A stretch of DNA of 64,000 nucleotides from an uncultured cyanobacterium (GTDB taxonomy: Bacteria > Cyanobacteriota > Cyanobacteriia > Cyanobacteriales > CAWUOF01): NCBI GenBank assembly GCA_963744145.1, contig CAVUSO010000001.1:1806831-1870830 (forward strand), in the 5' to 3' direction. The notes beneath the pieces were generated by a model, which was not told where the DNA came from, searched no databases, and was given only the letters and a program-made list of their open reading frames with translations. Of this stretch, positions 24,596 through 48,163 are shown in pieces. Every line of letters begins with the position of its first letter. Position 1 is the first letter of the stretch. The position numbers and the translations under genes are program-made.

Positions 24596-25156
24596 TTAAT
24601 ATTCACCGACAAATTGAGGATGTACCCACAAAAATTCCCGTCGTTTGTTTTGGACTCGGATCAGTCCCCCAAAATCAGGATCTTTTTCTTTAAGTAAAAC
24701 ATGAATTTTTCTGAGGGTGGAACCTTCAGCACGAATCAGTTTACCTTGTGCTAATTCAGGAGGATCTGGTTTGGGTTGGGAATCTAGAGCCATATCGCTA
24801 CTTTTTAAAGCAAAGTCAAGACTCTTTTCACCTAAATCTAGTTCTTTTTCAAAGCTTTTGTAAGTTGCATCATCTAGTGCTAATTGGGTAACTGATGTTG
24901 CTAGGGGTAAAACCAAAGTTAGTGTTTTAGTCAAAGCTTTTAAGTAGGGAATTGCTCCCGTCACCCATTCACGATTTATTTCAAATTCATAAACACCCGT
25001 TTTAGTGTCTGGGTAATTTAGAAAAGGAAGTGGTTGACGAGAGTGTTCACACCAGAGGGTAAGTTTACACTTGATACTCATCCATTTGGGGCGATCGAAA
25101 AACCCTGGATCAATTAGTTTAATACTAAATAATCTTGGTCCAATCTTTAGCTTCAT
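24596..25156 (-). CDS. Hypothetical protein (186 aa), overlaps the ROCO gene stop by 32 bp (possible translational coupling)
   Basis: ORF only; no recognised motifs. Confidence 0.35.
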   Translation of the reverse strand: MKLKIGPRLFSIKLIDPGFFDRPKWMSIKCKLTLWCEHSRQPLPFLNYPDTKTGVYEFEINREWVTGAIPYLKALTKTLTLVLPLATSVTQLALDDATYKSFEKELDLGEKSLDFALKSSDMALDSQPKPDPPELAQGKLIRAEGSTLRKIHVLLKEKDPDFGGLIRVQNKRREFLWVHPQFVGEY

Positions 25157-28100
25157 CGATAAATGTTTGGATTACACCTTCATAATGTGCGTCGATCTGG
25201 CTTAGAATAGCACTACTCTCTTTAGATAACGTTGTTTTAATTTCATCAACAATATTTCGGACTTTTTCAGCATTAATATCTGGAGATAGTGGTTTAGATG
25301 TTGATGCGTTAGAAAGCATTTTATCAATGTCTTGCCATTCATCACAGCCTGTAATTGGACAGGGATAATCATGACGATTTTTCTTTTTACTTTCAATCAG
25401 CTTTTCTACTTCAAATAATCCTTGTCCTGGTGCTTTTCTTCCGCAAGGTTCAACGCAAGACACCATCACATTACACCGTAATCCTTCCCAGAAATGTTCG
25501 ATTAACCATTTCACCTCTTCTGTTAAATAGGAGAGAAATCTCTCTGGATAAGCAGCCCGTACTGTAATTTTGATATCTGTACCAATATATTCTAACAAAG
25601 CACGACCATTGTAATCATTATCAAGCATTAAGCCTCGTTGCCAGTGAATGCTGTCTTGGTATTTCTCACGTCCCAGAGAATATTTGTGCAAGCGAACAAT
25701 AAGTTGATAAAACAATCCTTCTGCATTAGCAAATTGTCCGCGATCGTCCACAATGCGGCAAATTTGTACTTGTTGTCTATCTCCTGGTGCTGGTAGTTCA
25801 CCCCAATCAGGAAATAGCTCTGGACGTTGGTCTGGTACTAATTGAGCAATCAAACTGGTGTTACTGGGTTCATTTGGGTCAAATACAACTTTGTAGGATA
25901 AATCGAAGCGTTCCATTAGTCGTAAAAACACTGGATGGAGTTCTTTTGGATAGCCCTTCTCATTTGCAAAGGGAGGATAGCTCCATAAATTGCTGAGGTG
26001 ATCAAAGTTCACCAATCCGTTCTGTTCGCGGGTGGTTTTATCATCTAAAACAAAACTGATTGCTTTGGCTAACCAGTCAGGTTTGAGAATCACAATATCC
26101 TGCAAAATGGGATCATAATGATAATGGATTAAATACCCTAGCGTGTGAGAAACCCGCACAAATAGTTCAGCAGCAAATCCCTTTAGACCTTGTTCCTCAC
26201 AAATTGCAATTACATCTTTGTATGGTAAATGGGTTTTGTTCGATTGTTCCAAAAGTTTCTGAATTTGTTGCCATTTCTGGGGAACTGTTCGACCTACACC
26301 AGGTAAGGTAATAGCTATTTTAGCAATTGTCTCTTTCAATTCTGCAATTCCAGAGCAAGACTGGTTTTCTAGATGAGGTTTGCTATCAATATGGAAGAAA
26401 TCAATAATAGTTTCACGACCAAATAGGTCAAATAATTCTTGGCGATCGATATCGGGCTGGCGCTGTCCAGGTCCACCGTGGGTTGCTACTACTAGAATCT
26501 TCGCATCTGGTTCTCGGTGTTTAATCAGAGTAATCCACTCTTTGACAAAGCCCTGTTGTGGTCCTTCCCGTGGTTTCCAGACTACTAAATATACCGCAGG
26601 GGCACTAAAAAACAACTGATGAGTAGGACGATAAACTCTTTGTCCGCCAAAATCCCAACCATTTAGGGTGATTTCTGTGTTGCAATCAGGAGTTTTAACA
26701 ATGACAGGTTTAATTTCAATTCCATGAGTTGTCGGACGACCATCTATCCATTGATCGCCGCGTAATGCTCCCAATAAACAACTTTTACCTACCTCTCCCT
26801 CTCCTACCAAAATTAACTTGGCTTCATTTAAAGTTACTTCTCCCTCTGCTTTTGCCCGTAGGTATTGCATGACTGCTTCTATACCTTGTTCATTAGCAGC
26901 AGCAAAATCAGGATTAAGCGGATTCTTGTCAAGCTTAAGTTCAGTTAGCTTAATAAGCTTTATTAAACTATGGGGCACTTCCGTCAATTGGTTATTGGAG
27001 AGGTAAAGCCTTTGCAACTGTGTGAGGGCTGCGAGCGCCGCTGGCACTTCCGTCAATTGGTTATTGGAGAGGTCAAGCCATTGCAACTGTGTGAGAGCTG
27101 CGAGCGCCGCTGGCACTTCCGTCAATTGGTTTTTGGAGAGGTCAAGCGCTCGCAACTGTGTGAGAGCTGCGAGCGCCGCTGGCACTTCCGTCAATTGGTT
27201 TTTGGAGAGGTCAAGCCATTGCAACTGTGTGAGAGCTGCGAGCGCCGCTGGCACTTCCGTCAATTGGTTTTTGGAGAGGTCAAGCCATTGCAACTGTGTG
27301 AGAGCTGCGAGCGCCGCTGGCACTTCCGTCAATTGGTTTTTGGAGAGGTCAAGCCATTGCAACTGTGTGAGAGCTGCGAGCGCCGCTGGCACTTCCGTCA
27401 ATTGGTTTTTGTTGAGGGAAAGCAATTGCAACTGTGTGAGGGAAAATATTACCTCTGGCACTTTTGTCAATTGGTTTTTGTCGAGGTAAAGCGCTCGCAA
27501 CTGTGTGAGAGCTGCGAGCGCCGCTGGCACTTCCGTCAATTGGTTATTGTCGAGGTAAAGCGCTCGCAACTGTGTGAGGGAAAATATTACCTCTGGCACT
27601 TCCGTCAATTGGTTATTGTCGAGGGAAAGCGATTGCAACTGTGTGAGGGCTGCGAGCGCCGCTGGCACTTCCGTCAATTGGTTTTTGTTGAGGGAAAGCG
27701 ATTGCAACTGTGTGAGGGAAAATATTACCTCTGGCACTTCCGTCAATTGGTTATTGTCGAGGGAAAGCGATTGCAACTGTGTGAGGGCTGCGAGCGCCGC
27801 TGGCACTTCCGTCAATTGGTTATTGTTGAGGGAAAGCGATTGCAACTGTGTGAGGGCTGCGAGCGCCGCTGGCACTTCCGTCAATTGGTTATTGTCGAGG
27901 TCAAGCCATTGCAACTGTGTGAGGGAAAATATTACCTCTGGCACTTTTGTCAATTGGTTTTTTGAATCTTTCCAAAATTTTCCACCAAGATTAAGTTTTT
28001 GCAAATTGGTAAGTTGACCGATCGCCTCTGGCACTTCCGTCAATCCCATATCGCTAAGATCAAGTTCTGTAGCTCCATTTTCCAGTGCTGCTTCAATGCG

Positions 28101-28157
28101 CCGTTCAGCTTCCCGATATGCTTCATCCCGTGCCATCGTCAACCTCTGCTTGCTCAC
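25125..28157 (-). CDS. ROCO-family protein: about 15 leucine-rich repeats + Roc (Ras-of-complex GTPase) + COR domain
   Basis: 23-aa LRR units NNQLTEVPAALAALTQLQSLSLD repeated. Roc P-loop LILVGEGEVGKSCLLGAL, DFGGQ switch II, followed by a COR-like region. Confidence 0.85.
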   Translation of the reverse strand: MSKQRLTMARDEAYREAERRIEAALENGATELDLSDMGLTEVPEAIGQLTNLQKLNLGGKFWKDSKNQLTKVPEVIFSLTQLQWLDLDNNQLTEVPAALAALTQLQSLSLNNNQLTEVPAALAALTQLQSLSLDNNQLTEVPEVIFSLTQLQSLSLNKNQLTEVPAALAALTQLQSLSLDNNQLTEVPEVIFSLTQLRALYLDNNQLTEVPAALAALTQLRALYLDKNQLTKVPEVIFSLTQLQLLSLNKNQLTEVPAALAALTQLQWLDLSKNQLTEVPAALAALTQLQWLDLSKNQLTEVPAALAALTQLQWLDLSKNQLTEVPAALAALTQLRALDLSKNQLTEVPAALAALTQLQWLDLSNNQLTEVPAALAALTQLQRLYLSNNQLTEVPHSLIKLIKLTELKLDKNPLNPDFAAANEQGIEAVMQYLRAKAEGEVTLNEAKLILVGEGEVGKSCLLGALRGDQWIDGRPTTHGIEIKPVIVKTPDCNTEITLNGWDFGGQRVYRPTHQLFFSAPAVYLVVWKPREGPQQGFVKEWITLIKHREPDAKILVVATHGGPGQRQPDIDRQELFDLFGRETIIDFFHIDSKPHLENQSCSGIAELKETIAKIAITLPGVGRTVPQKWQQIQKLLEQSNKTHLPYKDVIAICEEQGLKGFAAELFVRVSHTLGYLIHYHYDPILQDIVILKPDWLAKAISFVLDDKTTREQNGLVNFDHLSNLWSYPPFANEKGYPKELHPVFLRLMERFDLSYKVVFDPNEPSNTSLIAQLVPDQRPELFPDWGELPAPGDRQQVQICRIVDDRGQFANAEGLFYQLIVRLHKYSLGREKYQDSIHWQRGLMLDNDYNGRALLEYIGTDIKITVRAAYPERFLSYLTEEVKWLIEHFWEGLRCNVMVSCVEPCGRKAPGQGLFEVEKLIESKKKNRHDYPCPITGCDEWQDIDKMLSNASTSKPLSPDINAEKVRNIVDEIKTTLSKESSAILSQIDAHYEGVIQTFIDEAKDWTKII
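26940..27965. repeat. Near-perfect tandem 69-bp repeats (about 15 units) encoding the LRR solenoid of the ROCO protein
   Basis: Direct reading: ggcacttccgtcaattggtt(a/t)ttg(g/t)(a/c)gaggt(c/a)aagcc(a/t)ttgcaactgtgtgag(a/g)gctgcgagcgccgct reiterated. The long + strand ORFs here are shadow frames. Confidence 0.9.
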
Positions 28158-28487
28158 TCAATCCTCTACAAACTCAGTTATACTTTAATTTTGGCAAAAA
28201 ATTATAACCACAAATAGGATAATATTGATAAATATTCTCAAAAGATGGTGGTGCAGAAATTTCTACTTTAGTAGAATTATTAGATACAAGCTTGTTTTCC
28301 GATCGCGATCGCACCTCCCCCCTGAAACCTTAACATGATCTAATCAAATAGACGCAAAAATACTAATATATGAATTGTTAAATGCGCTGGTTTTTAGAAG
28401 AGCGATCGCACCTAAAAATTTAGACAAGCGATCGCACCTAAAAATTTAGACAAGCGATCGCCAACAATCTAGTTCTGATCTATGAAA

Positions 28488-29351
28488 TTAGGCATCTGCA
28501 TCAGGATCAATCCCCATTGCCCGTAGGCGTTCTGCAAGTCTTGCTGCTTTAATTTCAGCTTGTTCTGCCCGTTGATCCGCCTGGATAGCCCGTTGATCCG
28601 CTTGGATGGCCCGTTGATCCGCTTGGATGGCTCGCTGACGTTCCTGTTCAGCTTGCAGTTTTTCTAGCTCGGCTTTTTCATTGCCAATCAGTAATAGATT
28701 ACCTTCATGATCCCACCATCGCAACCAGATTTGCGTTTGGTTTTGATAAGTTCCTTGCCATAGCCCTAGTTCTACTCCTAATGGCTCAATCAAATAATGG
28801 TTACGTTCATTCGGCTCTAATTTTCGATAGGAAAAATCTACTAAGTGATACACTTCTAACTTGGCAGTTTTGATTTCATAGATGCCATAATAGGGAATCC
28901 GAATGATTTGTTCATACACCCAAAATTTCCCTGGTTTAATTTTCTTACCGTCGGGAGAAATGGCAAGTGGAGTTCGATCTCGTTCTTCTTCACCATTACC
29001 ACTAGCAAACTCTAAGGCAATCAATGGGGCTCTTAATTCCCGCCAAAACACATAGGAACGGCGGATCTCTCCATCAAGATTAGGTGGGACATTTGGCACA
29101 TAGAACCAATCGGGAGCTTCAGCACCTTTTTCGGGAGGATCAGTTTCCAGCCAGTAGATGCCACTATCTTGTCCAATACAATAATATCCATCTGGATGCA
29201 ATTGTTGTAAAATTTGCCCAATCGAGTCCGTCAGGATCAGACTCTGGGGATGTTCCTGAAAATTTTTCACAAATGTACCGTCTTCGTCTGGCAGTTGGGT
29301 ATGATCTGGGAAGGAGGAATGGCGATTTACTTGGGTTAATGTTTCTGTCAT
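28488..29351 (-). CDS. Uma2-family (DUF820) putative endonuclease with C-terminal coiled coil and AIQADQR x3 repeat; copy 1
   Basis: Uma2 signature blocks APDWFYVPNVPP..., PLIALEFASGNGEEERD..., GKFWVYEQIIRIPYYGIYEI... (PD-(D/E)xK-like), C-terminal ...LRAMGIDPD. Confidence 0.7.
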   Translation of the reverse strand: MTETLTQVNRHSSFPDHTQLPDEDGTFVKNFQEHPQSLILTDSIGQILQQLHPDGYYCIGQDSGIYWLETDPPEKGAEAPDWFYVPNVPPNLDGEIRRSYVFWRELRAPLIALEFASGNGEEERDRTPLAISPDGKKIKPGKFWVYEQIIRIPYYGIYEIKTAKLEVYHLVDFSYRKLEPNERNHYLIEPLGVELGLWQGTYQNQTQIWLRWWDHEGNLLLIGNEKAELEKLQAEQERQRAIQADQRAIQADQRAIQADQRAEQAEIKAARLAERLRAMGIDPDADA

Positions 29352-29510
29352 AATTTTAATCTTATTGCCGCTGATGTTAACTATAGCTTGAATAAATTAT
29401 GAACGATAGTGGTGCAGAAATTTCTAGTTTGGTGGAGTGATTAGATTCATGCTGGTTTTTGGATTGCGATCGCGCCTATTATTAAAATACTAATCTGATC
29501 TAATCAATTC

Positions 29511-29855
29511 ATGGAAGCGAGACCGAGAGAAATTCAAAACTACCTAACGACAGAGGGAAAAAGTCCTTATGAAGAATGGGTCGAATCATTTCGCGATCGC
29601 CAAACTAGATCTCAAATCGATAAGAGACTTAAACGAGTTAAATTAGGTAATCTAGGAGATTATCGATCTGTTGGAAAAGGAGTTTTTGAGCTTAGAATAG
29701 ATCAATGTCCGGGCAATCAGATTTATTTTGGTCAAATTGGATTAACCATAGTGCTGCTACTCTGTGGTGGAGATAAAAGCACCCAAGAACAGGATATTGG
29801 TAAAGCTAAGGAATATTGGAGAGATTATGAAAGACGTAAAAATACCAACCCATAG
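29511..29855 (+). CDS. Addiction-module killer protein (RelE/ParE superfamily, TIGR02683-like toxin); copy 1, intact
   Basis: KRVKLGNLGDYRSVGKGVFELRIDQCPGNQIYF...CGGDKSTQEQDIGKAKEYW matches the conserved block of the killer-protein family. Confidence 0.7.
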   Translation: MEARPREIQNYLTTEGKSPYEEWVESFRDRQTRSQIDKRLKRVKLGNLGDYRSVGKGVFELRIDQCPGNQIYFGQIGLTIVLLLCGGDKSTQEQDIGKAKEYWRDYERRKNTNP

Positions 29856-30150
29856 AAGTTACGACGAATATTTTATTTCTGCTCTGAAAAACTCCGATCG
29901 AGCGGCTGGGTATATCGAAGCTATTTTGGAACCAGAAGAACCTGATTCTGAACTATTGCGATCGGGAATCAAAGATGTAATCGAAGCTCGCGAACAGATG
30001 AATAGTCTCTCGGATGAAGCCAAACAGAAATGGGAGAAATTTGACCAAATGTTATCCAAAGATGGTGGTGCAGAAATTTATAGTCTGGTAGAATTATTAG
30101 ATGCTCTTGGGTTTCGGATCGCGATCGCTCCCAAGGAAACAAATCTGTAA
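29827..30150 (+). CDS. Addiction-module antidote protein (TIGR02684-like, DNA-binding); copy 1; start MKDVKIPTH overlaps the toxin stop
   Basis: Overlapping gene pair with the upstream toxin. Conserved C-terminus SDEAKQKWEKFDQMLSKDGGAEIYSLVELLDALGFRIAIA shared with copy 2. Confidence 0.65.
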   Translation: MKDVKIPTHRSYDEYFISALKNSDRAAGYIEAILEPEEPDSELLRSGIKDVIEAREQMNSLSDEAKQKWEKFDQMLSKDGGAEIYSLVELLDALGFRIAIAPKETNL

Positions 30151-30354
30151 TTGACAGCCTGTAAATTAAGCTGAATCAGCATCACATCAACATTTCTCTC
30201 AATCTACTTTGCGATGATTAACTATGATGCTGCTGCTTGAATTTAAGTCTCATTTTCTAATAATTCTGATAGTTGTTTGTAATTAACTTGAAGCCGAACT
30301 ACCTGAACATTTTTCCATTGTGTTTCGTCACGGATTGGAAGTTGAATTTGGAAT

Positions 30355-30789
30355 TCATAAAACCCTGATTCTAAACTTGTGAAAACTTGCAGCATTAGGT
30401 CGTTTCTCATATTGTAAAAGTAAATTGGCAAATTTTGTAGCCCACCAACCATTTTCTGCTTGAATAACAAATCCAGCAGCCGTTTGAGCTATTTCTAGAT
30501 TTACCATACTAAGCGCCCAGAGGTAAACAGCCAAAGCAGTATCCCAAGGATTCTCATATTCTAAATTAATTTCATTGCGTGAAAGATCAACAGCTCTTTT
30601 AAAAACCAACCAGATATTTTCAGGAGAGTCTTGAAGTTGCTTGACCAATTCTTTTGTCACCAATTCTTTCGATGCAGCACCCAAGAAGACTTTAAAACTG
30701 CTAGCAATATTCAACATAGCAGCAAATTCATGGCTTTCTACTTGAATCATAAGTTTTTTTAACACTAGCTTGTCCTCCTGTCTGTCCAA
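30355..30789 (-). CDS. Hypothetical protein (144 aa, TTG start) between the two Uma2-TA modules
   Basis: ORF only. Confidence 0.3.
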   Translation of the reverse strand: MDRQEDKLVLKKLMIQVESHEFAAMLNIASSFKVFLGAASKELVTKELVKQLQDSPENIWLVFKRAVDLSRNEINLEYENPWDTALAVYLWALSMVNLEIAQTAAGFVIQAENGWWATKFANLLLQYEKRPNAASFHKFRIRVL

Positions 30790-31006
30790 AATTCTCTGAT
30801 TGTTCCATAAGGTTCTGGGACTTCATCAATTAAGTGAATGTACTCACCATCAGCTCCCCATTGACTGATCACAGTAATCTCAAAAGATGCTTTTCTGATA
30901 TCTGGTTCCTTTTTGACTACTACAGCAACATGAGAATACTCGTCACCGATCGCTCCTAAAAATACTTAGATGAGTGTGCGCCAAGCATCTAGTCCAATAT
31001 GTAAAA

Positions 31007-31849
31007 TTAGTCATCCGTATCAGGGTCAATCCCCATTGCCCGTAGACGTTCTGCAAGTCTTGCTGCTTTAATTTCAGCTTGTTCTGCCCGTTGATCCGAT
31101 TGGATTGCCCGTTGATCCGCCTGGATGGCTCGCTGACGTTCCTGTTCAGCTTGCAGTTTTTCTAGCTCGGCTTTTTCATTGCCAATCAGTAATAGATTAC
31201 CTTCATCATCCCACCATCGTAACCAGATTTGCGTTTGGTTTTGATAAGTCCCTTGCCATAGCCCTAGTTCTACTCCTAAGGGCTCAATCAAATAATGGTT
31301 ACGTTCATTCGGCTCTAGTTTTTGATAGGAAAAATCTACTAAGTGATACACTTCTAATTTGGCAGTTTTGATTTCATAGATGCCATAATAGGGAATCCGA
31401 ATAATTTGCTCATACACCCAAAATTTCCCTGGTTTGATCTTTTTACCGTCGGGAGAAATTGCCAGCGGAGTTCGATCTCGTTCTTCTTGACCATTACCAC
31501 TAGCAAACTCTAAGGCAATCAATGGGGCTCTTAATTCCCGCCAAAACACATAGGAACGGCGGATCTCTCCATCAAGATTAGGTGGGACATTTGGCACATA
31601 GAACCAATCGGGAGCTTCAGCACCTTTTTCGGGAGGATCAGTTTCCAGCCAGTAGATGCCACTATCTTGTCCAATACAATAATATCCATCTGGATGCAAT
31701 TGTTGTAAAATTTGCCCAATCGAGTCCGTCAGGATCAGACTCTGGGGATGTTCCTGAAAATTTTTCACAAATGTACCGTCTTCATCTGGCAGTTGGGTAT
31801 GATCTGGAAATGAGGAATGGCGATTTACTTGGGTTAATGTTTCTGTCAT
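31007..31849 (-). CDS. Uma2-family putative endonuclease, copy 2 (about 97% identical to copy 1; AIQ(A/S)DQR x2)
   Basis: Collinear with 28488..29351, differing by one heptad-repeat unit and a few substitutions. Confidence 0.7.
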   Translation of the reverse strand: MTETLTQVNRHSSFPDHTQLPDEDGTFVKNFQEHPQSLILTDSIGQILQQLHPDGYYCIGQDSGIYWLETDPPEKGAEAPDWFYVPNVPPNLDGEIRRSYVFWRELRAPLIALEFASGNGQEERDRTPLAISPDGKKIKPGKFWVYEQIIRIPYYGIYEIKTAKLEVYHLVDFSYQKLEPNERNHYLIEPLGVELGLWQGTYQNQTQIWLRWWDDEGNLLLIGNEKAELEKLQAEQERQRAIQADQRAIQSDQRAEQAEIKAARLAERLRAMGIDPDTDD

Positions 31850-31997
31850 AATTTTAATCTTATTGCCGCTGATGTTAACTATAGCTTGAATAAATTATGA
31901 ACGATAGTGGTGCAGAAACTTCTAGTTTGGTAGAATTATTAGATGCTCTTGGGTTTCCGATCGCGATCGCACCTACTAATGAAAAACCGATCTGATC

Positions 31998-32353
31998 TAA
32001 TCAAATCATGGAAGCACAACCGAGAGAAATTCAACGTTACCTAACCCGCGAAGGTAGAATTCCTTTTGCTGAATGGCTGTATTCTATTCGAGAATCTTAA
32101 AACTAGAGCTAAAATCGATCATAGAATTAAGCGAGTCAAATTAGGTAATCTGGGAGATTATCGATCTGTTGGAGAAGGAGTATTTGAACTGAAGATCAAT
32201 TATGGCCCCGGCTACAGAGTTGATTTTGGTCAAATCGGATTAACCATCATAATTCTTCTATGTGGTGGAGATAAAAGTACCCAAGAACAGGATATTTGTC
32301 AGGCTAAGGAATATTGGAGAGATTATGAAAACCGTGAAAATTCCGACCAGTGA
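31998..32353 (+). pseudogene. Addiction-module killer protein, copy 2, disrupted by a +1 frameshift near 32090-32100 (N-terminal MEAQPREIQRYLTREGRIPFAEWLYSIRES* then out-of-frame continuation ...KIDHRIKRVKLGNLGDYRSVGEGVFELKINYGPGYRVDF...)
   Basis: Aligned with copy 1: the N-terminal 33 codons are in frame 1 and the conserved remainder is in another frame. The downstream antidote is intact. Confidence 0.6.
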
Positions 32354-32642
32354 TAGTTGGCAAGAAGCATTAATTGAATCTTTAAAAAATCTTGAATATG
32401 CTGCCGCTTATCTAGAGACTGCACTAGAAGAAAAAGAATCCGAACCAGAATTCTTGCCAGCTATAATCAAAGATGTAATCGAAGCTCGCGAACAGATGAA
32501 TAGTCTCTCGGATGAAGCTAAACAGAAATGGGAGAAATTTGACCAAATGTTATCCAAAGATGGTGGTGCGGAAATTTATAGTCTGGTAGAATTATTAGAT
32601 GCTCTTGGGTTTCGGATCGCGATCGCATCTAAAAATACCTAG
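32325..32642 (+). CDS. Addiction-module antidote protein, copy 2 (start MKTVKIPTS)
   Basis: C-terminal half is identical in protein to copy 1 (SDEAKQKWEKFDQMLSKDGGAEIYSLVELLDALGFRIAIA). Confidence 0.65.
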   Translation: MKTVKIPTSDSWQEALIESLKNLEYAAAYLETALEEKESEPEFLPAIIKDVIEAREQMNSLSDEAKQKWEKFDQMLSKDGGAEIYSLVELLDALGFRIAIASKNT

Positions 32643-32751
32643 ATGAGTGTATGCTAAGAATGTGGGAATATGTGAAAGTAGTCATCCGCATCAGGGTCAA
32701 TGGCTATTACTCACAGATATTCTGATGTTTAGAGCAACTCAAGGTATAATC

Positions 32752-33804
32752 ATGGATTGGAAACCAGAAACCACTTTAATTTTTGCCGTAGGAATTTTGA
32801 CATGGGAAAACTCGGATGTTTGGCCATCTTTTCCCGAAGCAATTCCAGGACGTTTTGATCAAAAATTGGTTGATTTTTTTCGCGCTCAAGGAGTTCCTGA
32901 AGCGCAAATTGTTTATTTACAAGATGCCAAGGCGACTCTGGCAGAAATTCAATCAACTCTACCAGAATTTTTAGCTAATCATAGTGATGAAGATTACCTA
33001 CTAATTTTTTATTTTGCTGGTCATGGAGATTGGGATAAAGAAACAGGTGAACATTATTTTATAAATTACGATGCTGATGGCGATGATCGAGATAATTATT
33101 GGTCAGTCACTTCGATTTTTGGTGATATTGAAGATAATTTTAAAGGTTCTAAGGCTTTGTTATTAGCTGATTGTTGCTTTTCAGGTGGTTTAATTGATCA
33201 GGTAAAGGAAGGAGATGATTTAGAGATTTCCTATGCTTGTATCAGTTCAGCTTATACCCATAACTTTTCGACCGGGAATTGGACTTTTACAGAAGCTTTG
33301 TATCAAGGATTGCTGGGAGATCCTGTAGTTGATTTAGACGGCGATCGCGAGATAACTTTATATGATTTTGCTCGTTATGCAGAATTAGAAATGGCTTTCA
33401 TTGAATCTCAGAAATCGATGTTTGTGACTACTAAAGATTTTGATCCTCAGATGGTGTTAGCAATTGTATCTGATGATATTCCAGCGATCGAAGGAAAGCG
33501 GGTCGAAGTAGAATATGAGAATGAGTGGTACAAAGCTAAGACTTTAGAAAGAGAAGGAGATCAAGTTTTAATCAAATATGTTGAGGATGATGAGGAACCA
33601 GCATGGGTAACCAATGATCAGATTCGTCCCTATCAACCAGAGCTGTTTGCTATTGGAGAAAAAGTAGAAGTTGAATCAGAAGAAGAATGGTGTTCAGCAA
33701 CGGTTTTAAAAGCTTGGTATGGGTTGCATTTGATTAGTTATGACGATTATGATGAGTCCTATAATGAATGGGTAGGAAGCGATCGCATTCGTCCTCAACA
33801 GTAG
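32752..33804 (+). CDS. Orthocaspase (peptidase C14 caspase-like domain) with two C-terminal Tudor/Agenet-like domains
   Basis: Catalytic dyad context YLLIFYFAGHGDWD (His) and KALLLADCCFSGGLID (Cys). Two repeats GKRVEVEYENEWYKAKTL...VLIKYVEDDEEPAWVTNDQIRP and GEKVEVESEEEWCSATVL...HLISYDDYDESYNEWVGSDRIRP. Likely start MDWKPE at 32752; the track start 32647 lies in repeat-derived sequence. Confidence 0.65.
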   Translation: MDWKPETTLIFAVGILTWENSDVWPSFPEAIPGRFDQKLVDFFRAQGVPEAQIVYLQDAKATLAEIQSTLPEFLANHSDEDYLLIFYFAGHGDWDKETGEHYFINYDADGDDRDNYWSVTSIFGDIEDNFKGSKALLLADCCFSGGLIDQVKEGDDLEISYACISSAYTHNFSTGNWTFTEALYQGLLGDPVVDLDGDREITLYDFARYAELEMAFIESQKSMFVTTKDFDPQMVLAIVSDDIPAIEGKRVEVEYENEWYKAKTLEREGDQVLIKYVEDDEEPAWVTNDQIRPYQPELFAIGEKVEVESEEEWCSATVLKAWYGLHLISYDDYDESYNEWVGSDRIRPQQ

Positions 33805-34250
33805 GAATACTAATCTAATCCTGAATGGCGATTAATAATATGCGCTCGTTACTCAAACAGAATTAGCAAGAGCGAGCGCTAGCAATAAATCAACAGCGAA
33901 GATTTAGTTAAACCAGCAAAGAGAATTTTTAGGAATTAGGACTGTCTGTTTGATTAGCGATCGCTGGTGATGTCTAAAGACCTAATTGATATCTACTTTT
34001 GTGTGAGTTTACTTGGGTAGCAACGTGGAAAAGGTTGTTAATACCAACAGGATCTGTTACAATTATCACTAAAATTAGTTCCAAATTGCTCATCTTTGCC
34101 ATCATTTGCTCTTTCTGGTCTAATCGGTCACTTTCCTTGACAACTGTGAGCAAGAGAGTGAGCATTAAGACTTAAGCTAGATCGACTGTCCATGAGTCTT
34201 GCGGTTTAACCCTATATAATATTGGAATAACTTGGGGAGATGAATAGATA

Positions 34251-37200
34251 ATGACTGTCTATGTTTATATCACCGAGCAATGTAAAAATGACGCTAGCAG
34301 ACATGGTGCCATCAATGATATTGAGAAATTCAAGGAAAAGCTAGAAAATGACCAAAGTGCTCGTCTGCTCACTCGTCTTGATTATCGATATCACAGAAGG
34401 GTCATGGGGACGAATAGTAGCGCAAGATTGGTGATTGAAGAATATCGTACTGATCACGACACCATCGTTTTGTGTTTTGTAGGATATCATATCCGGAGTA
34501 GCGCTGATTACAGTTTATTACTAAACAGTCCAAACACTTACTACGAACGATATGGGGTAACAGATGAAGAAATTGAAGCATTTCTCAAAGAGAAAACTAT
34601 AAATCCAATCAAGAAAAAGCCACAACTGACAGAATTTGAATCTGAGTATCTTCAGTCTGCAAGCGGATACGATTACACTAATGATGGTGCCTTTTTAGAA
34701 AGTTACGACTGGGTTGAGCGCATTTCTGAAGATTGGGCTAAAAGCTACTTAAATCGTTACCATGATCTGATTTTTAAGTTGACAGAGGAAGTTGAAAGTT
34801 GTATAAGTCATGTAGGGATAGACACGCTTTCCCATGATAAGAACCCAAATATAAAAATAATTTTCCGGAGTTTTCCTGAACATAGACGAATTTTCCTGAT
34901 CGCTCCTATTAATTGGCAGAAAGATAGCGATGAAAAAAATATCCGTGAGCAATACGCCGATTTATTAACAGCAAACTCACTCAAAATGGAAGACCTAATC
35001 CGCAACAGTCTTCGCGCATATCCAACAATTATTATCTATGATGAAGATATTTGGATGCGAGTAGAAAATACTACAGAAGCAAATCTAGCCCTGTCACCAG
35101 AAGAAGAATGTGTTCTTGGATCTGTAAAAAGTCGAGTTAGCAATGGGGCTAAGTATCCTCTATTTATTAATGGTCGTCCTGGGAGCGGAAAATCTACAAT
35201 TCTTCAGTATTTATTTGCAGAACAGCTAGCTAATTTTATTAAATTGCTTAATAATTCAAACATCAATAATCCTCCACTTTATCTTACTTATAGTACGCCC
35301 TTGTTAGAAGAAGCCCGCGAATTAGTCAAAAAAATTTTAACTTGTGGAATTCGCCATGTAGAGGATGAAAGTATACAAGCATTTGTCACAGATTATAACA
35401 AACTGCATTCATGTTTCCGTAATTTTCGTGAGTTTTTGCGCTCATTACTACCACTCGAAATTCGCGATCGCTTTGTCCAAGCTAATTATGTAGACTTTGC
35501 TCGTTTTCGCAAACTTTGGGAAGACAAGCGTGGTAAACATCCGCAGAAGGAAGTCCGCAGCATTGGGCCGGAACTAGGGTGGCACGCAGTGAGAACTTTC
35601 ATTAAAGGTATGCAATCGGAATCGGGAATTGTGGTAGACCCTGATTATTATCGAGATGAGCTAGCGCGAGACAGTAAATCCATTTCCGATCAGACTTTTG
35701 AAATCATTTACGAGCATATTTGGAAGAAGTGGTATGAGCCTCTTTGTAAGAATGAAAAGTATTGGGATGACCAAGACTTAGCACTTGAGGTTCTGATTAA
35801 TGTAGGGGAACAATTATCGGGTTATCCAGCGGTGTTTTGCGATGAGGCTCAAGATTTCACCACGATTGAGCTAGGACTGATTGAGCGGCTTTCAGTCTAC
35901 TCTGGGAAAGAAATACATAGCTTTTGGGTAAAGAATGTACCCTTTGCCTTTGCTGGTGATCCGTTTCAGACTCTGAATCCAACAGGGTTTAATTGGAGTG
36001 CCATGCAATCTAATTTTTATGACAATATTATTAAGCAGTTAGATCCTAGGGGCATAGCGAAGCTAGAGTTTAATTTTCAGGAGCTAGCATTTAACTATCG
36101 ATCGGCAGAACATATTGTCAAACTCGCTAATCTGATTCAATTACTACGTGCTGTCTTACTTCGGATTAAGGGAATTCGTCCTCAATATAGCTGGACTCGT
36201 AAAATTACCAACAGTCCTGTTTATTTTCGGTGGGATGATATTAACTGCCGCGCCAAACTCCGTGAACAAGATGAATTAGTTATGATTGTTCCTTGTCAGG
36301 AAAATGGTGAATTTGAATATGTAAAAGAAAATGAATTTCTGACATCGATCGCGATTAATCAGGCTGGAGAAATATCTAGAAACATTCTCAGTCCAGCCAG
36401 GGCTAAGGGCTTAGAGTATGATCGGGTTGTTCTCTATGGATTTGGTGATGAAGCAGGAAAGCGTTTTCCAGATTTACTAGCACAGATCAATGATCCTAGT
36501 AAAGATCCGCCGGATCTAGAACAAAGATTATCATGGGAGTATTTTCTCAATCAGTTTTATGTGGCGATTAGTCGTCCCCGTAAGCGATTATTTATAGTTG
36601 ATTCAGATGAATCATTGAAAAATTTCTGGTTGTTCACTGCTCCTCTAAAACAAAAAGTATTGCTCAGTCTCTATGATCTTTATCAACCTAATCATAATTG
36701 GAGTTTAGATGAACTGGGAGGTATGCTGGAAGGGGATAATTCAAGTTGGTTAGACGATCGAGACGATCCTTTAGAATTAGCTTCTCAATGGCGAGATCAG
36801 GGTCAGCTTCAGCGTGATCCTTATTTATTACGTCTGGCTAAAGATAACTTCTATCGGGCTGAGCGTTTTGAGGACGCAAGTTTGTGTGAAGCTAAACAAT
36901 ATGAATATGAAGGTGAGTTTAAAAAAGCTGCGGAACTATTTATTAATCTTGGTCAATCTGGTGAAGCTTGTCGTTGTTACTGGACAGATCGAGATGCTAA
37001 CTCGGTCGTTCGTTTGGTTGAAAAGTTTCCTAAGATTACAACTGATCTACGTTTTATTGCTGCGGGTTCTATTGTGAGAGAGCGCAATACAGTATTCCAG
37101 CTTAATCACGTACTGACAGCACTCGAACAAACCCCCCCATCATTGACAGAGCTACCGGAGGAAGTGGAGGGGTGGCGCTGGTTTTTTAGTTGTTTTGCAG

Positions 37201-38723
37201 ACAAGATCAGTGAAGAAATCTTAGCTTCTGACCGCGCAACAGCAGAATGGAAACCCTATATTGAACGTTTGATTCAAACTATTAAACGGTTTGAATTACC
37301 TCTGAGCGCTTATCCAGAAATTGCTAAACTCCTTTATTTGTCTGGAGATGCAAGAGTCGCGATCGATCACTGGAATCGGTACTGTCGGGATTATAAATCC
37401 GATCGACCGGGAGAAAAATGGCTCACTCAAGCCCGAGCAGAAACAGAAGCATATCCTACAAATATCCGTTTTTACCATGAACTGGGTGATTATCAAACGG
37501 TTATTAATCAATGGACATTAGCCGATCGCATCATCGATAGCGATACACCAGTAAGTTTGCTACTTGATAGCGCCGCTAGGTTGAATGATCTTACAGCACT
37601 GCGAGCTATATTACCAGCAACTGACGATCTTAACAAATTGAATCGGGCGCTTAGTCTGCTTAATGACAAGACTATTCTCTCTTTAGAGGGAGCATTATGC
37701 GTTGCAATTACCCACTCAATGGAATCTTATGGTGATGGGGAAAAAATTATCCAGTTTGTGGTCAACAAAACCACCTCAAACAAAGAGCTAGATGCGAGAA
37801 TTAAAAATGCAGGAATCGCATGGAAAGGTAAAGTGTTAATAGCTGCGGCAGTTCGAGCTATAGCCCGTTCAGAGCGATTATTCCAAGATCAGGTTAAAGC
37901 TCAAAAAATATCTGAATTTTTGAAGCAAGTTCTAATTTTAGAAAAAGATGCAAATCCCAATAAACAAAATCGAGTCAAGTCGGTTTTGGAATTAATAGAT
38001 ATTACCGAGGCTGGAGCAGCATTTGAAAGAGGATTTCGTCGGTTAAATTATGCACTGGATTTTTATGAACAATTCTTTGAAAATAGCTATCTTGCTTATC
38101 GTGTACTAAATCCTTCTCAGGAGCAAACTGAGTTTGCTAAACTACGATGGATTTTTTGCAAGCGTCGTTTAGCTGATATCACCAGGGATAATAAATATAG
38201 GACTGAGGCTGACAATCGGGGACGTGAGTGGAATATTTCAACTAATCAAAAACCTGATTCTCTAAACCTTCAGCCCATCAGTGAGCTAAAGCTTTCTATT
38301 CCTGGACTAGCTGCTCCATCATCCAGTCCTTCAGCTAGTGAAATAACCAAACAAAAACAACCATTACCAACCAAAATTAAACCATTAGATAAAAGTAAGA
38401 AAACGATTATATTCAAATTAGATAACCAGCAAATAAAAGTGGAAGCTTTTCCCCTGAAAAAGCGAATTATTTTGACTGATTATGAAACTCAAAACCAAGT
38501 AAAATGCGAGTTTCAAAATGTGACAAGTGAAGATATTGAGATTAAGGAGGAAGTCTCTGTCTCTGAACAGATCCGAATCTGGAATATTTCTGATTGGGGA
38601 CTTCGATGTGAAATGGAAGCTAAAGAAGATTTAGCGACAATCCGTTTTCGTCTTCCTCATGGAGTGGTAAAGGAATTTAGATTTATCGTGAATAAAAAAG
38701 TCGAAGATAAAGATCACCCCTAG
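34251..38723 (+). CDS. Giant (1490 aa) UvrD/Rep-like SF1 helicase fusion protein with an unknown ~280-aa N-terminal region and a ~650-aa C-terminal alpha-helical/TPR-like plus beta-rich extension
   Basis: Motif I FINGRPGSGKSTIL, II VFCDEAQDF, III FAGDPFQTLNP, IV FNYRSAEHIV, V ARAKGLEYDRVVLYGF, VI YVAISRPRKRLFIVD. Confidence 0.7.
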   Translation: MTVYVYITEQCKNDASRHGAINDIEKFKEKLENDQSARLLTRLDYRYHRRVMGTNSSARLVIEEYRTDHDTIVLCFVGYHIRSSADYSLLLNSPNTYYERYGVTDEEIEAFLKEKTINPIKKKPQLTEFESEYLQSASGYDYTNDGAFLESYDWVERISEDWAKSYLNRYHDLIFKLTEEVESCISHVGIDTLSHDKNPNIKIIFRSFPEHRRIFLIAPINWQKDSDEKNIREQYADLLTANSLKMEDLIRNSLRAYPTIIIYDEDIWMRVENTTEANLALSPEEECVLGSVKSRVSNGAKYPLFINGRPGSGKSTILQYLFAEQLANFIKLLNNSNINNPPLYLTYSTPLLEEARELVKKILTCGIRHVEDESIQAFVTDYNKLHSCFRNFREFLRSLLPLEIRDRFVQANYVDFARFRKLWEDKRGKHPQKEVRSIGPELGWHAVRTFIKGMQSESGIVVDPDYYRDELARDSKSISDQTFEIIYEHIWKKWYEPLCKNEKYWDDQDLALEVLINVGEQLSGYPAVFCDEAQDFTTIELGLIERLSVYSGKEIHSFWVKNVPFAFAGDPFQTLNPTGFNWSAMQSNFYDNIIKQLDPRGIAKLEFNFQELAFNYRSAEHIVKLANLIQLLRAVLLRIKGIRPQYSWTRKITNSPVYFRWDDINCRAKLREQDELVMIVPCQENGEFEYVKENEFLTSIAINQAGEISRNILSPARAKGLEYDRVVLYGFGDEAGKRFPDLLAQINDPSKDPPDLEQRLSWEYFLNQFYVAISRPRKRLFIVDSDESLKNFWLFTAPLKQKVLLSLYDLYQPNHNWSLDELGGMLEGDNSSWLDDRDDPLELASQWRDQGQLQRDPYLLRLAKDNFYRAERFEDASLCEAKQYEYEGEFKKAAELFINLGQSGEACRCYWTDRDANSVVRLVEKFPKITTDLRFIAAGSIVRERNTVFQLNHVLTALEQTPPSLTELPEEVEGWRWFFSCFADKISEEILASDRATAEWKPYIERLIQTIKRFELPLSAYPEIAKLLYLSGDARVAIDHWNRYCRDYKSDRPGEKWLTQARAETEAYPTNIRFYHELGDYQTVINQWTLADRIIDSDTPVSLLLDSAARLNDLTALRAILPATDDLNKLNRALSLLNDKTILSLEGALCVAITHSMESYGDGEKIIQFVVNKTTSNKELDARIKNAGIAWKGKVLIAAAVRAIARSERLFQDQVKAQKISEFLKQVLILEKDANPNKQNRVKSVLELIDITEAGAAFERGFRRLNYALDFYEQFFENSYLAYRVLNPSQEQTEFAKLRWIFCKRRLADITRDNKYRTEADNRGREWNISTNQKPDSLNLQPISELKLSIPGLAAPSSSPSASEITKQKQPLPTKIKPLDKSKKTIIFKLDNQQIKVEAFPLKKRIILTDYETQNQVKCEFQNVTSEDIEIKEEVSVSEQIRIWNISDWGLRCEMEAKEDLATIRFRLPHGVVKEFRFIVNKKVEDKDHP

Positions 38724-45233: not shown

Positions 45234-45403
45234 AGAAGGAACATAGGACTTTAAAAAAGTTTTTTATCTAAGCCTCCTTGGCCTTGTCTGTAGTCTCAAG
45301 CCTATCAACGTTTAATCCCGATATTTAGGGCAGTAAACTGCAATTTTACCGGATTTGGAAGGCTTAAGATGCAATTTGCTGGCCATTCGCAAATTGGAAG
45401 AAT

Positions 45404-48129: not shown

Positions 48130-48163
48130 TGATTAAGTGGACAAAAACCAAACATCCCATTAA

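What the first reader, a model, noticed from the sequence alone, without database searches (positions are those of the whole stretch)
32752..33804. Orthocaspase fused to tandem Tudor/Agenet-like domains, embedded in the defense-like island
The caspase His/Cys dyad contexts (FAGHG; DCCFSGG) are intact, so it is probably an active protease. The C-terminus has two ~45-aa repeats with a Tudor/Agenet-like pattern (G-K/E-x-V-E-V-E…E-W-x-x-A-x-V/T-L…Y…IRP). This domain combination is unusual for prokaryotic caspases.

The 5' end of the gene is built from the repeated module-leading sequence, so its promoter and N-terminus were created by the same rearrangements that duplicated the Uma2-TA modules. 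Its position between the TA modules and a giant helicase suggests an abortive-infection-type effector.
Basis: partly seen in the sequence, partly recalled or inferred. Interest (0 to 1): 0.65.

Follow-up and report, generated by a model that had tools for sequence, protein, structure and literature searches.

The report
Caspase-like protease with two Tudor barrels
This is an intact bacterial caspase-type protease fused to two Tudor-like "reader" barrels; it belongs to a widespread family that was described by sequence analysis in 2018 but never tested, and nothing ties it to the toxin-antitoxin or helicase genes beside it.

Summary

The fusion is not unusual. At least 278 loci in GTDB species genomes carry it, in Cyanobacteria, Planctomycetota, Chloroflexota, Acidobacteriota, Bacteroidota and others. 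Kaur et al. 2018 (Sci Rep 8:6196) already named caspase + chromo-like as one of the most common architectures of secreted bacterial chromo-like domains.

No neighbour gene is conserved across 81 loci, so an abortive-infection role coupled to the TA modules or the helicase is unsupported.

The repeated "module" sequence ends 27 nt upstream of the ATG. It is a decayed Uma2 3' fragment. The protein's N-terminus is conserved in homologs and was not created by rearrangement.

One twist: most family members carry Sec or Tat leaders. This protein and its cyanobacterial clade have none, so it probably acts in the cytoplasm.

Most likely function: a Tudor-targeted endopeptidase. Substrate and ligand are unknown.

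The parts
32752..33804 (+). Complete CDS (350 aa plus TAG stop) of the caspase-like / tandem-Tudor protein
   Evidence: ORF listing and sequence. Homologs of 46-73% identity cover 99-100% of it and start at the same position.
32752..33465 (+). Caspase/metacaspase-like (C14) catalytic domain, residues 1-238
33022..33024 (+). Codon of catalytic His91 (YFAGHG)
   Evidence: Aligned with the GHG His of AtMC4 and AtMC9. Invariant in 80/80 close homologs and 105/106 diverse homologs.
33175..33177 (+). Codon of catalytic Cys142 (second Cys of ADCCFSG). Asp140 (33169-33171) lies two residues before it.
   Evidence: It aligns with the Cys of DSCHSG in AtMC4. The C139A entry 6w8r and the C147A entry 8a53 carry Ala in exactly this column. 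Invariant in 80/80 and 106/106 homologs.
33490..33645 (+). Tudor/chromo-like barrel 1, residues 247-298 (strands 250-255, 258-268, 271-276, 284-287, 291-293)
33649..33801 (+). Tudor/Agenet-like barrel 2, residues 300-350 (strands 304-309, 312-322, 325-330, 339-342, 346-348)
   Evidence: Best Agenet and Tudor_4 stretch at residues 302-349. Foldseek matches the FXR2 tandem Tudor 3h8z (E 3.5e-7, 26% id) and FMRP 4ova. Y330, Y333, Y337 and W340 are present. Position 314 is Cys here and Tyr in 71/80 homologs.
32647..32751 (+). In-frame upstream extension (GTG start of the 385-aa ORF). Not part of the real protein.
   Evidence: No homolog shares it. Close homologs have a stop codon 6-35 codons upstream of the conserved DW motif.
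32620..32725 (.). Third, truncated copy of the TA-module/Uma2 junction. On the minus strand, 32678-32725 is a decayed Uma2 3' end.
   Evidence: Repeat families D10 and D11, three-way alignment, translations showing in-frame stops and a lost stop codon.

Best explanation
The gene encodes a stand-alone, catalytically competent C14 cysteine endopeptidase of metacaspase/orthocaspase type. Its C-terminus is a rigidly attached tandem of two Tudor/chromo-like SH3-fold barrels.

It is a vertically inherited member of a large bacterial family with one fixed architecture. That architecture is the 'caspase + chromo-like' fusion of Kaur et al. 2018.

Proposed mechanism (inferred). The barrels act as the targeting or ligand-sensing module. 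Through conserved aromatic pockets they would bind a short peptide carrying a cationic, possibly methylated, amino group. The caspase domain would then cleave the bound or nearby protein. Cleavage is probably after Arg or Lys, because the acidic residues Asp36 and Asp140 that flank the metacaspase S1 site are invariant.

Most family members are exported through Sec or Tat leaders. This protein belongs to a single cyanobacterial clade that lost the leader, so it most likely works in the cytoplasm.

It is not a functional partner of the adjacent Uma2/RelE-ParE modules or of the UvrD-like helicase. It simply lies next to a locally duplicated, decaying TA/Uma2 array.
For: Shown:
- Domain hits pass the curated cut-offs.
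- The dyad aligns with the catalytic His and Cys of solved metacaspases. The Cys-to-Ala mutant entries mark the same column.
- H91, C142 and D140 are invariant in 80/80 close homologs. In 106 diverse homologs H91 is kept in 105, C142 in 106, D140 in 105 and D36 in 104.
- The AF2 model has pLDDT 94.6 and pTM 0.92, with no disordered linker.
- The architecture is conserved over residues 1-347 in at least 278 genomic loci from many phyla. There are 238 clusters at 50% identity with E<=1e-30.
- The architecture is published (PMC5906684).
- Neighbourhoods are not conserved.
- Leaders: 46/46 of the <=52%-identity sequences in the alignment have Sec-like leaders. Of the 33 homologs at >=57% identity, 31 have none and 2 have Tat leaders. 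The Tat pair is sister to one leaderless clade.
- The leaderless proteins begin within 0-6 residues of the conserved DW motif, about where the predicted leader ends in the Sec-type homologs.

Inferred: Tudor-mediated targeting, P1 basic specificity and cytoplasmic location.
Against: - There is no biochemical data for any family member.
- In this particular protein neither barrel has the full three-aromatic pocket. Barrel 1 lacks the Trp49-equivalent (clade-wide deletion). Barrel 2 has Cys314 instead of Tyr. Methyl-lysine-type binding may therefore be weak or altered.
- Signal peptides were judged by hydrophobicity and motifs only; no SignalP was run. Non-classical export cannot be excluded.
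- The mapping of Asp36 to the metacaspase S1 Asp rests on motif position and my recollection of the TbMCA2 pocket, not on a residue-level structural alignment.
- Uma2 genes flank homologs in 5 other cyanobacterial loci. Some recurrent association with Uma2-rich variable regions therefore exists.
Confidence: 0.55

Rival explanations
1. Abortive-infection or defence effector. On phage attack the caspase is activated, together with the adjacent RelE/ParE-TA modules, the Uma2 nucleases or the 1490-aa UvrD-like helicase, and it kills or arrests the cell.
For: - The gene lies between TA/Uma2 modules and a UvrD-like protein with weak GajB-type hits.
- It has a weak PADLOC 'caspase' hit (25 bits).
- The Cylindrospermum homolog also sits among ParE/Phd, PIN and AAA_15/21 genes.
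- Uma2 neighbours, which PADLOC calls candidate PDC-S03, occur at 6 of 20 cyanobacterial-clade loci.
Against: - No neighbour family recurs in more than 9 of 81 loci. The helicase family appears only in this genome.
- Planctomycete, Chloroflexi and Ignavibacteria homologs sit beside housekeeping genes such as DUF1501, a Mn/Zn ABC transporter, ABC-F, PfkB and Fe-ADH.
- Most family members are exported, which does not fit an intracellular suicide protease.
- The NCBIfam EACC1-associated caspase model scores 42.7 against a cut-off of 140.
- TA and Uma2 genes are very abundant in cyanobacteria (own knowledge), and the Uma2-bearing loci are partly syntenic, so they are not independent.
Confidence: 0.07
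2. Exported cell-envelope or matrix peptidase, as proposed for the family by Kaur et al. 2018. The barrels dock on methylated-lysine-like or other cationic groups in murein or extracellular-matrix peptides, and the caspase domain trims them. This protein would still reach the envelope by an unrecognised route.
For: - Published prediction for the family.
- About 85-90% of diverse members carry Sec, lipoprotein or Tat leaders.
- Sister cyanobacterial sequences P0023 and P0036 have Tat leaders.
- Some homologs lie near envelope genes: LytR_cpsA_psr, MurJ and PMT.
Against: - The window protein and 31 of the 33 closest aligned homologs have no leader at all.
- An in-frame stop lies 6-35 codons upstream, and the 35-codon extension here is not hydrophobic.
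- The leaderless state is clade-wide and conserved, so it is not an annotation artefact.
Confidence: 0.15
3. General stress or programmed-cell-death orthocaspase of cyanobacteria. It would be a broadly acting executioner protease, and the Tudor barrels would serve only as a structural or regulatory appendage, like Ig3 in MALT1.
For: - The cyanobacterial orthocaspase literature links true (His-Cys) orthocaspases to cell death and shows many accessory domains (PMC7475262).
- The model shows barrels tightly packed on the catalytic domain (pTM 0.92).
- Top Foldseek hits are MALT1 caspase-Ig3 structures.
Against: - The same architecture is mostly exported in non-photosynthetic phyla, which does not fit a cytoplasmic death protease.
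- Aromatic pocket residues are conserved far beyond what a passive appendage needs.
- There is no experimental link of this family to cell death.
- Tudor and Agenet are absent from the accessory-domain table of that review.
Confidence: 0.15
4. Decaying or non-functional gene: a pseudo-protease or a remnant carried along in a rearranging region.
For: - The upstream region is a relic of a rearrangement.
- Two otherwise conserved positions deviate: Y314C and E284A.
- No promoter-like site was found in the spacer.
Against: - The reading frame is full length, and all catalytic and most structural invariant residues are intact.
- It is 70-73% identical to its nearest homologs over 100% of its length.
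- The same-strand upstream TA genes, with no predicted terminator, could supply transcription.
Confidence: 0.05

Closest known systems
Bacterial caspase + chromo-like (Tudor-like) fusion proteins described by Kaur, Iyer, Subramanian and Aravind 2018, Sci Rep 8:6196 (PMC5906684)
   Same: - N-terminal caspase-like peptidase followed by tandem chromo/Tudor-like barrels with conserved aromatic residues.
- Same phyletic range: planctomycetes, cyanobacteria, bacteroidetes, chloroflexi.
- The window protein is 46-73% identical over its full length to such proteins.
   Different: That paper describes the bacterial chromo-like domains as consistently secreted. This protein and its cyanobacterial clade lack any signal peptide. 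Their barrel 1 has lost one pocket aromatic through a small deletion.
Plant type II metacaspases AtMC4 (6w8s/6w8r) and AtMC9 (8a53)
   Same: - The sequence motifs GHG and D-x-C-H-S-G-G-L-I-D align residue for residue, including the catalytic His and Cys and the preceding Asp.
   Different: - No long p20-p10 linker and no separate p10 region typical of type II metacaspases.
- The catalytic domain is one compact 238-aa unit with no low-confidence segment.
- The window protein has Phe where the family consensus and metacaspases have His after the Cys (DCCFSG versus DSCHSG).
- It carries C-terminal Tudor barrels that metacaspases lack.
Cyanobacterial orthocaspases (e.g. MaOC1 of Microcystis aeruginosa; review PMC7475262)
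   Same: Prokaryotic C14 homolog with an intact His-Cys dyad, a 'true' orthocaspase in that nomenclature, with an accessory C-terminal domain.
   Different: Tudor and Agenet are not among the accessory domains tabulated for 98 cyanobacterial orthocaspases. The Arg specificity and autoprocessing of MaOC1 (own knowledge) are untested here.
MALT1 paracaspase (caspase-Ig3)
   Same: Top Foldseek hits, E about 3e-10. An unprocessed caspase-fold domain is followed by a tightly docked C-terminal beta domain.
   Different: The C-terminal domain is an Ig fold in MALT1 and SH3-fold barrels here. Sequence identity is only 11-14%. There are no death or Ig N-terminal domains.
Eukaryotic 'Royal family' readers: FMRP/FXR1/FXR2 tandem Agenet-Tudor, and the MRG15/Eaf3/MRG2 chromo barrels
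   Same: - Five-stranded barrels, rmsd 0.8-1.3 A over 52-57 residues.
- 24-26% identity to the FXR2 and FMRP tandem.
- The family profile aligns WY-KAK, HY and GF/GW with the MRG pocket residues Tyr26, Tyr46 and Trp49.
   Different: - Bacterial, and fused to a protease.
- The pocket is incomplete in both barrels of this protein.
- The ligand is unknown, and there are no histones in the host.
Defence-associated caspase-fold proteases (EACC1-associated caspases NF047832; CHAT proteases of type III-E CRISPR and SAVED-CHAT)
   Different: - The score is far below the NF047832 cut-off of 140.
- There is no EACC1, SAVED or TPR module.
- There are no conserved defence partners.

Membership tests
Peptidase family C14 (caspase/metacaspase/orthocaspase) | Sequence match to the family model above the curated threshold | tested here: met
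   PF00656 at 33.2 bits against a cut-off of 21.4, residues 59-187.
Peptidase family C14 (caspase/metacaspase/orthocaspase) | His-Cys catalytic dyad in the canonical positions | tested here: met
   The profile alignment puts His91 on the GHG His and Cys142 on the DSCHSG Cys of AtMC4 and AtMC9. The Cys-to-Ala mutant entries mark the same column. Both residues are invariant in homologs.
Peptidase family C14 (caspase/metacaspase/orthocaspase) | Caspase-hemoglobinase alpha/beta fold | tested here: met
   [not shown]
Peptidase family C14 (caspase/metacaspase/orthocaspase) | Endopeptidase activity, with Arg/Lys P1 preference for the metacaspase and orthocaspase branch | not testable with these tools
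   Only indirect evidence: Asp140 aligns with the Asp of DSCHSG, and Asp36 is invariant.
Tudor/Agenet/chromo 'Royal family' (Pfam clan CL0049) | Sequence match above threshold, present in tandem | tested here: met
   PF05641 Agenet at 44.8 bits against a cut-off of 27, two stretches. Sub-threshold Tudor_4, MBT, PWWP and MORC2-chromo hits. Internal repeat E 6e-5.
Tudor/Agenet/chromo 'Royal family' (Pfam clan CL0049) | Five-stranded SH3-like beta-barrel | tested here: met
   [not shown]
Tudor/Agenet/chromo 'Royal family' (Pfam clan CL0049) | Complete aromatic cage (equivalents of MRG15 Tyr26/Tyr46/Trp49) | tested here: inconclusive
   Barrel 1 has Y260 and Y276, but the third column is deleted in the cyanobacterial clade. 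Barrel 2 has Y330 and Y333 (plus Y337), but position 314 is Cys here and Tyr in 71/80 homologs.
Tudor/Agenet/chromo 'Royal family' (Pfam clan CL0049) | Binding of methylated Lys/Arg peptides | not testable with these tools
   No binding data exist for any bacterial member. It is a prediction in PMC5906684.
Secreted bacterial caspase + chromo-like fusion family (Kaur et al. 2018) | Caspase-like peptidase followed by tandem chromo-like domains | tested here: met
   Full-length homology to planctomycete, cyanobacterial, chloroflexi and bacteroidetes members.
Secreted bacterial caspase + chromo-like fusion family (Kaur et al. 2018) | N-terminal signal peptide (secreted) | tested here: not met
   There is no leader. 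The conserved DW motif starts at residue 2, and the 35-codon upstream extension is not hydrophobic (maximum 12-aa hydropathy 1.4). 31 of the 33 closest aligned homologs are also leaderless, against 46/46 Sec-like in the other clade. This is a heuristic test; no SignalP was run. Homology to the family is unaffected.
EACC1-associated / defence-system caspases | Match to NF047832 above its cut-off, and presence of effector-associated or sensor modules | tested here: not met
   42.7 bits against a cut-off of 140. Only C14 and Tudor-type domains were found.
EACC1-associated / defence-system caspases | Conserved genomic association with defence or NTPase partner genes | tested here: not met
   Clustering of 1101 ORFs from 81 loci: apart from the caspase itself, no family occurs in more than 9 loci. 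PADLOC and Pfam scans of 92 neighbours from 18 cyanobacterial-clade loci give Uma2/PDC-S03 as the top family (6-7 proteins) and nothing else recurrent.

The most novel reading that the evidence does not exclude
The leaderless cyanobacterial clade, including this gene, would be an exported envelope protease that was relocated to the cytoplasm. There its remaining aromatic pocket would read a methylated (or otherwise cationic) Lys/Arg mark on an intracellular protein and direct site-specific cleavage. That would make it a bacterial 'PTM-reader protease', with reader and effector in one polypeptide. The complementary decay of pocket 1 in cyanobacteria and of part of pocket 2 in planctomycetes would reflect a change of ligand that accompanied the change of compartment.
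Probability: 0.1. Interest if true: 0.7.

Novelty: new member of a known kind. Interest (0 to 1): 0.3.

Why it matters
The family is large, with hundreds of 50%-identity clusters across at least eight phyla. Its catalytic and pocket residues are strictly conserved. It is thought to represent the bacterial ancestry of eukaryotic chromo/Tudor readers. Even so, no member has a known substrate, ligand or phenotype.

For this window the practical result is negative. The gene should not be counted as part of a defence or abortive-infection module, and its domain fusion is not new.

The modest new point is a clean, clade-wide loss of the export signal in cyanobacteria. A Tat-bearing sister group offers a natural comparison. 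This gives a simple experimental handle on what the Tudor barrels recognise inside and outside the cell.

Tried and rejected
- Conserved operon or defence context. I called ORFs in 81 loci (window +/-10 kb plus 80 fetched loci) and clustered them with all-vs-all BLASTP. Nothing was family-wide. Local synteny only: a Mn/Zn ABC transporter in 4 loci, DUF1501 in 9, DUF4126 in Ignavibacteria.
- PADLOC and Pfam scan of 92 neighbours from 18 cyanobacterial-clade loci. Only Uma2 (PADLOC PDC-S03) recurs, with 6-7 proteins. A local HMM iteration places Uma2 at 6 of 20 loci, partly syntenic. I judged this a feature of variable-region context, not a functional link.
- The helicase neighbour as partner. 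It is found only in the same genome (L001).
- The longer 385-aa ORF (GTG 32647) as the true protein. Rejected, because homologs start at the ATG-equivalent position and the extension is antisense to a Uma2 relic.
- Promoter and terminator scan of 32400-34300. No + strand promoter-like site upstream of the gene and no terminator, so this was uninformative.
- Literature searches. 'orthocaspase + Agenet' gave 0 papers. The cyanobacterial orthocaspase review lists no Tudor or Agenet domain.
- Naming the organism through the protein cluster. No name or accession is held. The window's own genome was not among the 80 loci kept from the genome-contig scan (best hit 71% identity).
Full report
**What is there**

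The + strand ORF ending at 33804 can be read from GTG 32647 (385 aa) or from ATG 32752 (350 aa). Homologs decide for the ATG. In an alignment of 25 full-length relatives, the conserved sequence begins at residues 2-3 of the 350-aa form (DW.PE.T..F.VG; W3, T8, F11, G14 invariant). Close cyanobacterial homologs have an in-frame stop only 6-35 codons upstream of that motif.

**Domains and chance**

- Pfam finds Peptidase_C14 at 33.2 bits (cut-off 21.4, residues 59-187).
- Pfam finds Agenet at 44.8 bits (cut-off 27, two stretches, best at 302-349).
- There are sub-threshold Tudor_4, MORC2-chromo, MBT and PWWP hits, all from one clan.
- The two C-terminal repeats are 45% identical to each other over 49 residues, E 6e-5.
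- NCBIfam gives only a sub-threshold 'caspase, EACC1-associated type' hit (42.7 against 140).
- PADLOC gives a weak generic 'caspase' hit.

**Catalytic residues**

A profile built from 80 homologs aligns 'YfaGhG' with 'YSGHG' of Arabidopsis metacaspase-4. It aligns 'laDcChsGalide' with 'ISDSCHSGGLIDE'. The deposited C139A (6w8r) and AtMC9 C147A (8a53) mutants carry Ala in exactly the column of Cys142. His91 and Cys142, the second Cys of 'DCC', are therefore the dyad.

| Residue | 80 close homologs | 106 diverse 50%-cluster representatives spanning both ends |
|---|---|---|
| H91 | 80/80 | 105/106 |
| C142 | 80/80 | 106/106 |
| D140 | 80/80 | 105/106 |
| D36 | 80/80 | 104/106 |

**Structure**

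AlphaFold2 with the 80-sequence alignment gives pLDDT 94.6 and pTM 0.92, with no disordered segment. The model has one alpha/beta domain (about residues 1-238) followed by two five-stranded barrels (250-293 and 304-348).

- Foldseek gives MALT1 caspase-Ig3 at E about 3e-10. It also gives the FXR2 and FMRP tandem Tudors at E about 4e-7 with 24-26% identity.

The second refutation test, a non-Tudor fold, is also not triggered.

**Aromatic pockets**

The family profile aligns barrel 1 to the MRG2/MRG15 chromo barrel. The methyl-lysine pocket of MRG15 is Tyr26, Tyr46 and Trp49 (PMC1747190). The equivalents are Y260, Y276 and a 'GF/GW' column.

| Group | Barrel 1 | Barrel 2 |
|---|---|---|
| Clade with Sec-type leaders (mostly planctomycete) | All three aromatic ('VHYvGFddsWDEWV') | Equivalents of Y314/Y330/Y333 kept; only the extra aromatic at position 337 is weak (about 30% aromatic) |
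| Cyanobacterial clade | Third column and a neighbouring aromatic deleted ('rYI--EDqsE-EWV') | Full set kept (Y314, Y330, Y333, W337) |
| Window protein | As the cyanobacterial clade | Cys at 314 (Tyr in 71/80); also Ala at 284 in barrel 1 (Glu in 74/80) |

Neither pocket of this particular protein is canonical. I leave that membership feature as inconclusive.

**How common and how known**

- The word-indexed search returned 287 hits. The top 120 are all full length, 46-73% identical and share the architecture. Sources name them 'agenet domain-containing protein', 'caspase family protein' or 'Tudor domain-containing protein' (Cylindrospermum Cylst_3944, Aerosakkonema, Desertifilum, Planctomycetes MAGs).
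- The exhaustive search of 1.84 billion cluster representatives found 238 clusters at E<=1e-30.
- In one-genome-per-species GTDB contigs, at least 278 loci encode a relative. Nearly all 80 that I kept match residues 1-347. They come from Cyanobacteria, Planctomycetota, Chloroflexota, Acidobacteriota, Myxococcota, Verrucomicrobiota, Chitinophagaceae, Ignavibacteria and Leptospirales.
[quoted passage not shown] They predict binding of methylated-lysine-like moieties in murein or matrix peptides.

The combination is therefore neither rare nor new. It is, however, missing from the cyanobacterial orthocaspase review's domain table. No paper in the library combines 'orthocaspase' and 'Agenet'.

**Genomic context**

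In the window the gene follows two copies of a Uma2 / RelE-ParE toxin / antidote module.
- The Uma2 genes are at 28488-29351 and 31007-31849 (both minus strand).
- TIGR02683 toxins are at 29511-29855 and 32066-32353.
- Weak TIGR02684 antidotes are at 29764-30150 and 32262-32642.

The gene precedes a 1490-aa protein with a UvrD_C region (34251-38723; weak GajB-type hits). Further out lie a Ser/Thr kinase-WD40 protein, two PAS/GAF histidine kinases, an LRR-Roc-COR protein and a cyanobactin cluster (PatG, methyltransferase-DUF5838, YcaO, PatA). That is a variable region, but hardly a defence island.

To test functional linkage I called ORFs in the window +/-10 kb and in 80 fetched loci (1101 ORFs) and clustered them.
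- The caspase cluster is present in 71 loci.
- The next most widespread family occurs in 9 loci (DUF1501), then 8 (an ABC ATPase).
- The helicase family occurs only in the window and in L001, which is the same genome.
- Pfam-annotated contexts of three close homologs differ completely. They are TA modules with AAA_15/21 in Cylindrospermum, PMT/NMT1/histidine kinases in Aerosakkonema, and radical SAM and unknowns in Desertifilum.
- A scan of 92 neighbours from 18 cyanobacterial-clade loci gave Uma2 (PADLOC 'PDC-S03') as the only recurrent family, with 6-7 proteins.
- Uma2 lies next to the gene in L003, L004, L010, L011 and L013 as well as the window. L003, L010 and L013 are syntenic. Uma2 genes are very numerous in cyanobacteria (own knowledge).

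I read this as a shared preference for variable regions, not as a system.

**The 5' end claim**

Repeat families D10 and D11 place a third copy of the module junction at 32620-32724. The three-way alignment shows good identity up to about 32701, decay until about 32725 and nothing thereafter. On the minus strand this is the last 15 or so codons of a Uma2 gene. It now has an internal stop, and its own stop codon is mutated: '...SEYL*VIAIDPDADDY' against '...AERLRAMGIDPDTDD*'.

The relic ends 27 nt before the ATG. It accounts for most of the 110-nt spacer and for the spurious 35-codon ORF extension, but for none of the protein. The rearrangement may have replaced the native upstream region. No sigma-70-like site or terminator is detected there, so read-through from the TA genes is possible. 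That last point is an inference.

**Export signals**

| Group | Leader state |
|---|---|
| 46 sequences at <=52% identity (80-sequence alignment) | All 46 have an N-terminal basic-hydrophobic-AxA-type leader that ends 3-6 residues before the DW motif |
| 33 homologs at >=57% identity | 31 have no leader; 2 (P0023, P0036; also loci L005 and L008) carry a twin-arginine leader ('SRRKFTQ/K') |
| 106 diverse representatives | 86 have a hydrophobic leader, 4 are Tat-like, 8 have none, 8 are ambiguous by my crude threshold |
| Ignavibacteria versions | Look like lipoproteins |

A neighbour-joining tree puts the Tat pair as sister to a single leaderless clade that contains the window protein. These calls rest on hydropathy and motifs, not on SignalP. 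Still, the pattern is clear. The family is ancestrally exported, and this clade has lost the signal. This is the one respect in which the window protein departs from the published description.

**Mechanism**

Shown: an intact, strongly conserved metacaspase-type active site; two Tudor/chromo-type barrels rigidly attached; no conserved partners.

Inferred:
- The barrels target or gate the protease by binding a short peptide with a cationic, possibly methylated, amine.
- Cleavage is after basic residues. The Asp of D-x-C aligns with the metacaspase motif, Asp36 is invariant, and metacaspases and orthocaspases are Arg/Lys-specific (established knowledge).
- No inter-subunit processing is needed, because the model has no linker. 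This resembles MALT1 and GSU0716.
- The site of action here is the cytoplasm.

I put about 0.55 on this package. That breaks down as about 0.95 for what the protein is, about 0.8 for its independence from the neighbours and about 0.4 for the targeting mechanism.

Rivals:
- Still-exported envelope peptidase: 0.15.
- Generic cell-death orthocaspase with a regulatory appendage: 0.15.
- Abi/defence effector: 0.07.
- Decaying gene: 0.05.

**Verdict**

The claims of rarity, of a rearrangement-built N-terminus and of an abortive-infection role are not supported.

The gene is a new member of a known but experimentally untouched family, with a clade-specific loss of the export signal. Interest is 0.3.

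Noticed in passing
window 27521-27962 (within gene 25125-28157, minus strand): There are five to seven tandem 69-nt units, several 100% identical to each other. They lie in the leucine-rich-repeat part of an LRR-Roc-COR protein. Local GC is 51% against about 39% around. This suggests very recent repeat expansion or gene conversion.
   Followed up: partly
window 28241-32642: The Uma2 + RelE/ParE toxin + antidote module is duplicated with a 2498-nt period. The Uma2 parts are 97% identical and the toxin parts 76%. Orphan copies of the antidote gene's 3' end lie at 28241-28316, 29402-29477 and 31900-31975. The second toxin copy (32066-32353) matches TIGR02683 only from profile position 18, so it is N-terminally shortened.
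   Followed up: partly
window 39066-51249: This is a cyanobactin-type RiPP cluster: PatG-like oxidase/protease, methyltransferase-DUF5838, YcaO cyclodehydratase and PatA-like protease. The patG-like gene has 48-50% GC against about 38% in the flanks, which suggests foreign origin.
   Followed up: no
window 34251-38723: A 1490-aa protein has only a short UvrD_C / P-loop signature (residues about 300-790) and about 700 C-terminal residues without any family match. It was not found next to any other caspase-Tudor gene.
   Followed up: partly
L016:2-2863, L017:1375-4155, L039 and L043 (three ORFs directly upstream of the caspase-Tudor gene at about 10001): A Mn/Zn-type ABC transporter lies directly upstream of caspase-Tudor genes, on the same strand, with gaps of 28-179 nt. 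It comprises an ABC ATPase and two ABC-3 permeases, the second with a DtxR-like C-terminal domain. It occurs in two very different lineages: leaderless Chloroflexota-labelled MAGs and Sec-type Schlesneria. It could be an operon or could be chance.
   Followed up: partly
L005:1389-2429, L008:2424-3464; proteins P0023, P0036: These cyanobacterial caspase-Tudor homologs carry a twin-arginine (Tat) leader, 'MSKLSRRKFTQ...'. They branch as sister to the leaderless clade. In cyanobacteria Tat can target either the periplasm or the thylakoid lumen (own knowledge).
   Followed up: partly
L003, L004, L010, L011, L013 (Uma2 ORFs at -1, +1 or +3 relative to the caspase-Tudor gene): Uma2 (PADLOC PDC-S03) genes sit next to cyanobacterial caspase-Tudor genes. 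In three loci they are convergent with a 52-53-nt gap. In the window an Uma2 relic abuts the gene's upstream side.
   Followed up: partly
window 14320-16509 (minus strand): A Ser/Thr kinase-WD40 protein gives very strong PADLOC PD-T4-6 hits (E 2.6e-148 over the kinase domain). This is probably generic kinase similarity rather than evidence of a defence gene.
   Followed up: no
protein P0041 (homolog, 419 aa): One cyanobacterial homolog carries a C-terminal tail of about 70 residues, made almost entirely of Asp/Glu, after the second Tudor barrel.
   Followed up: no
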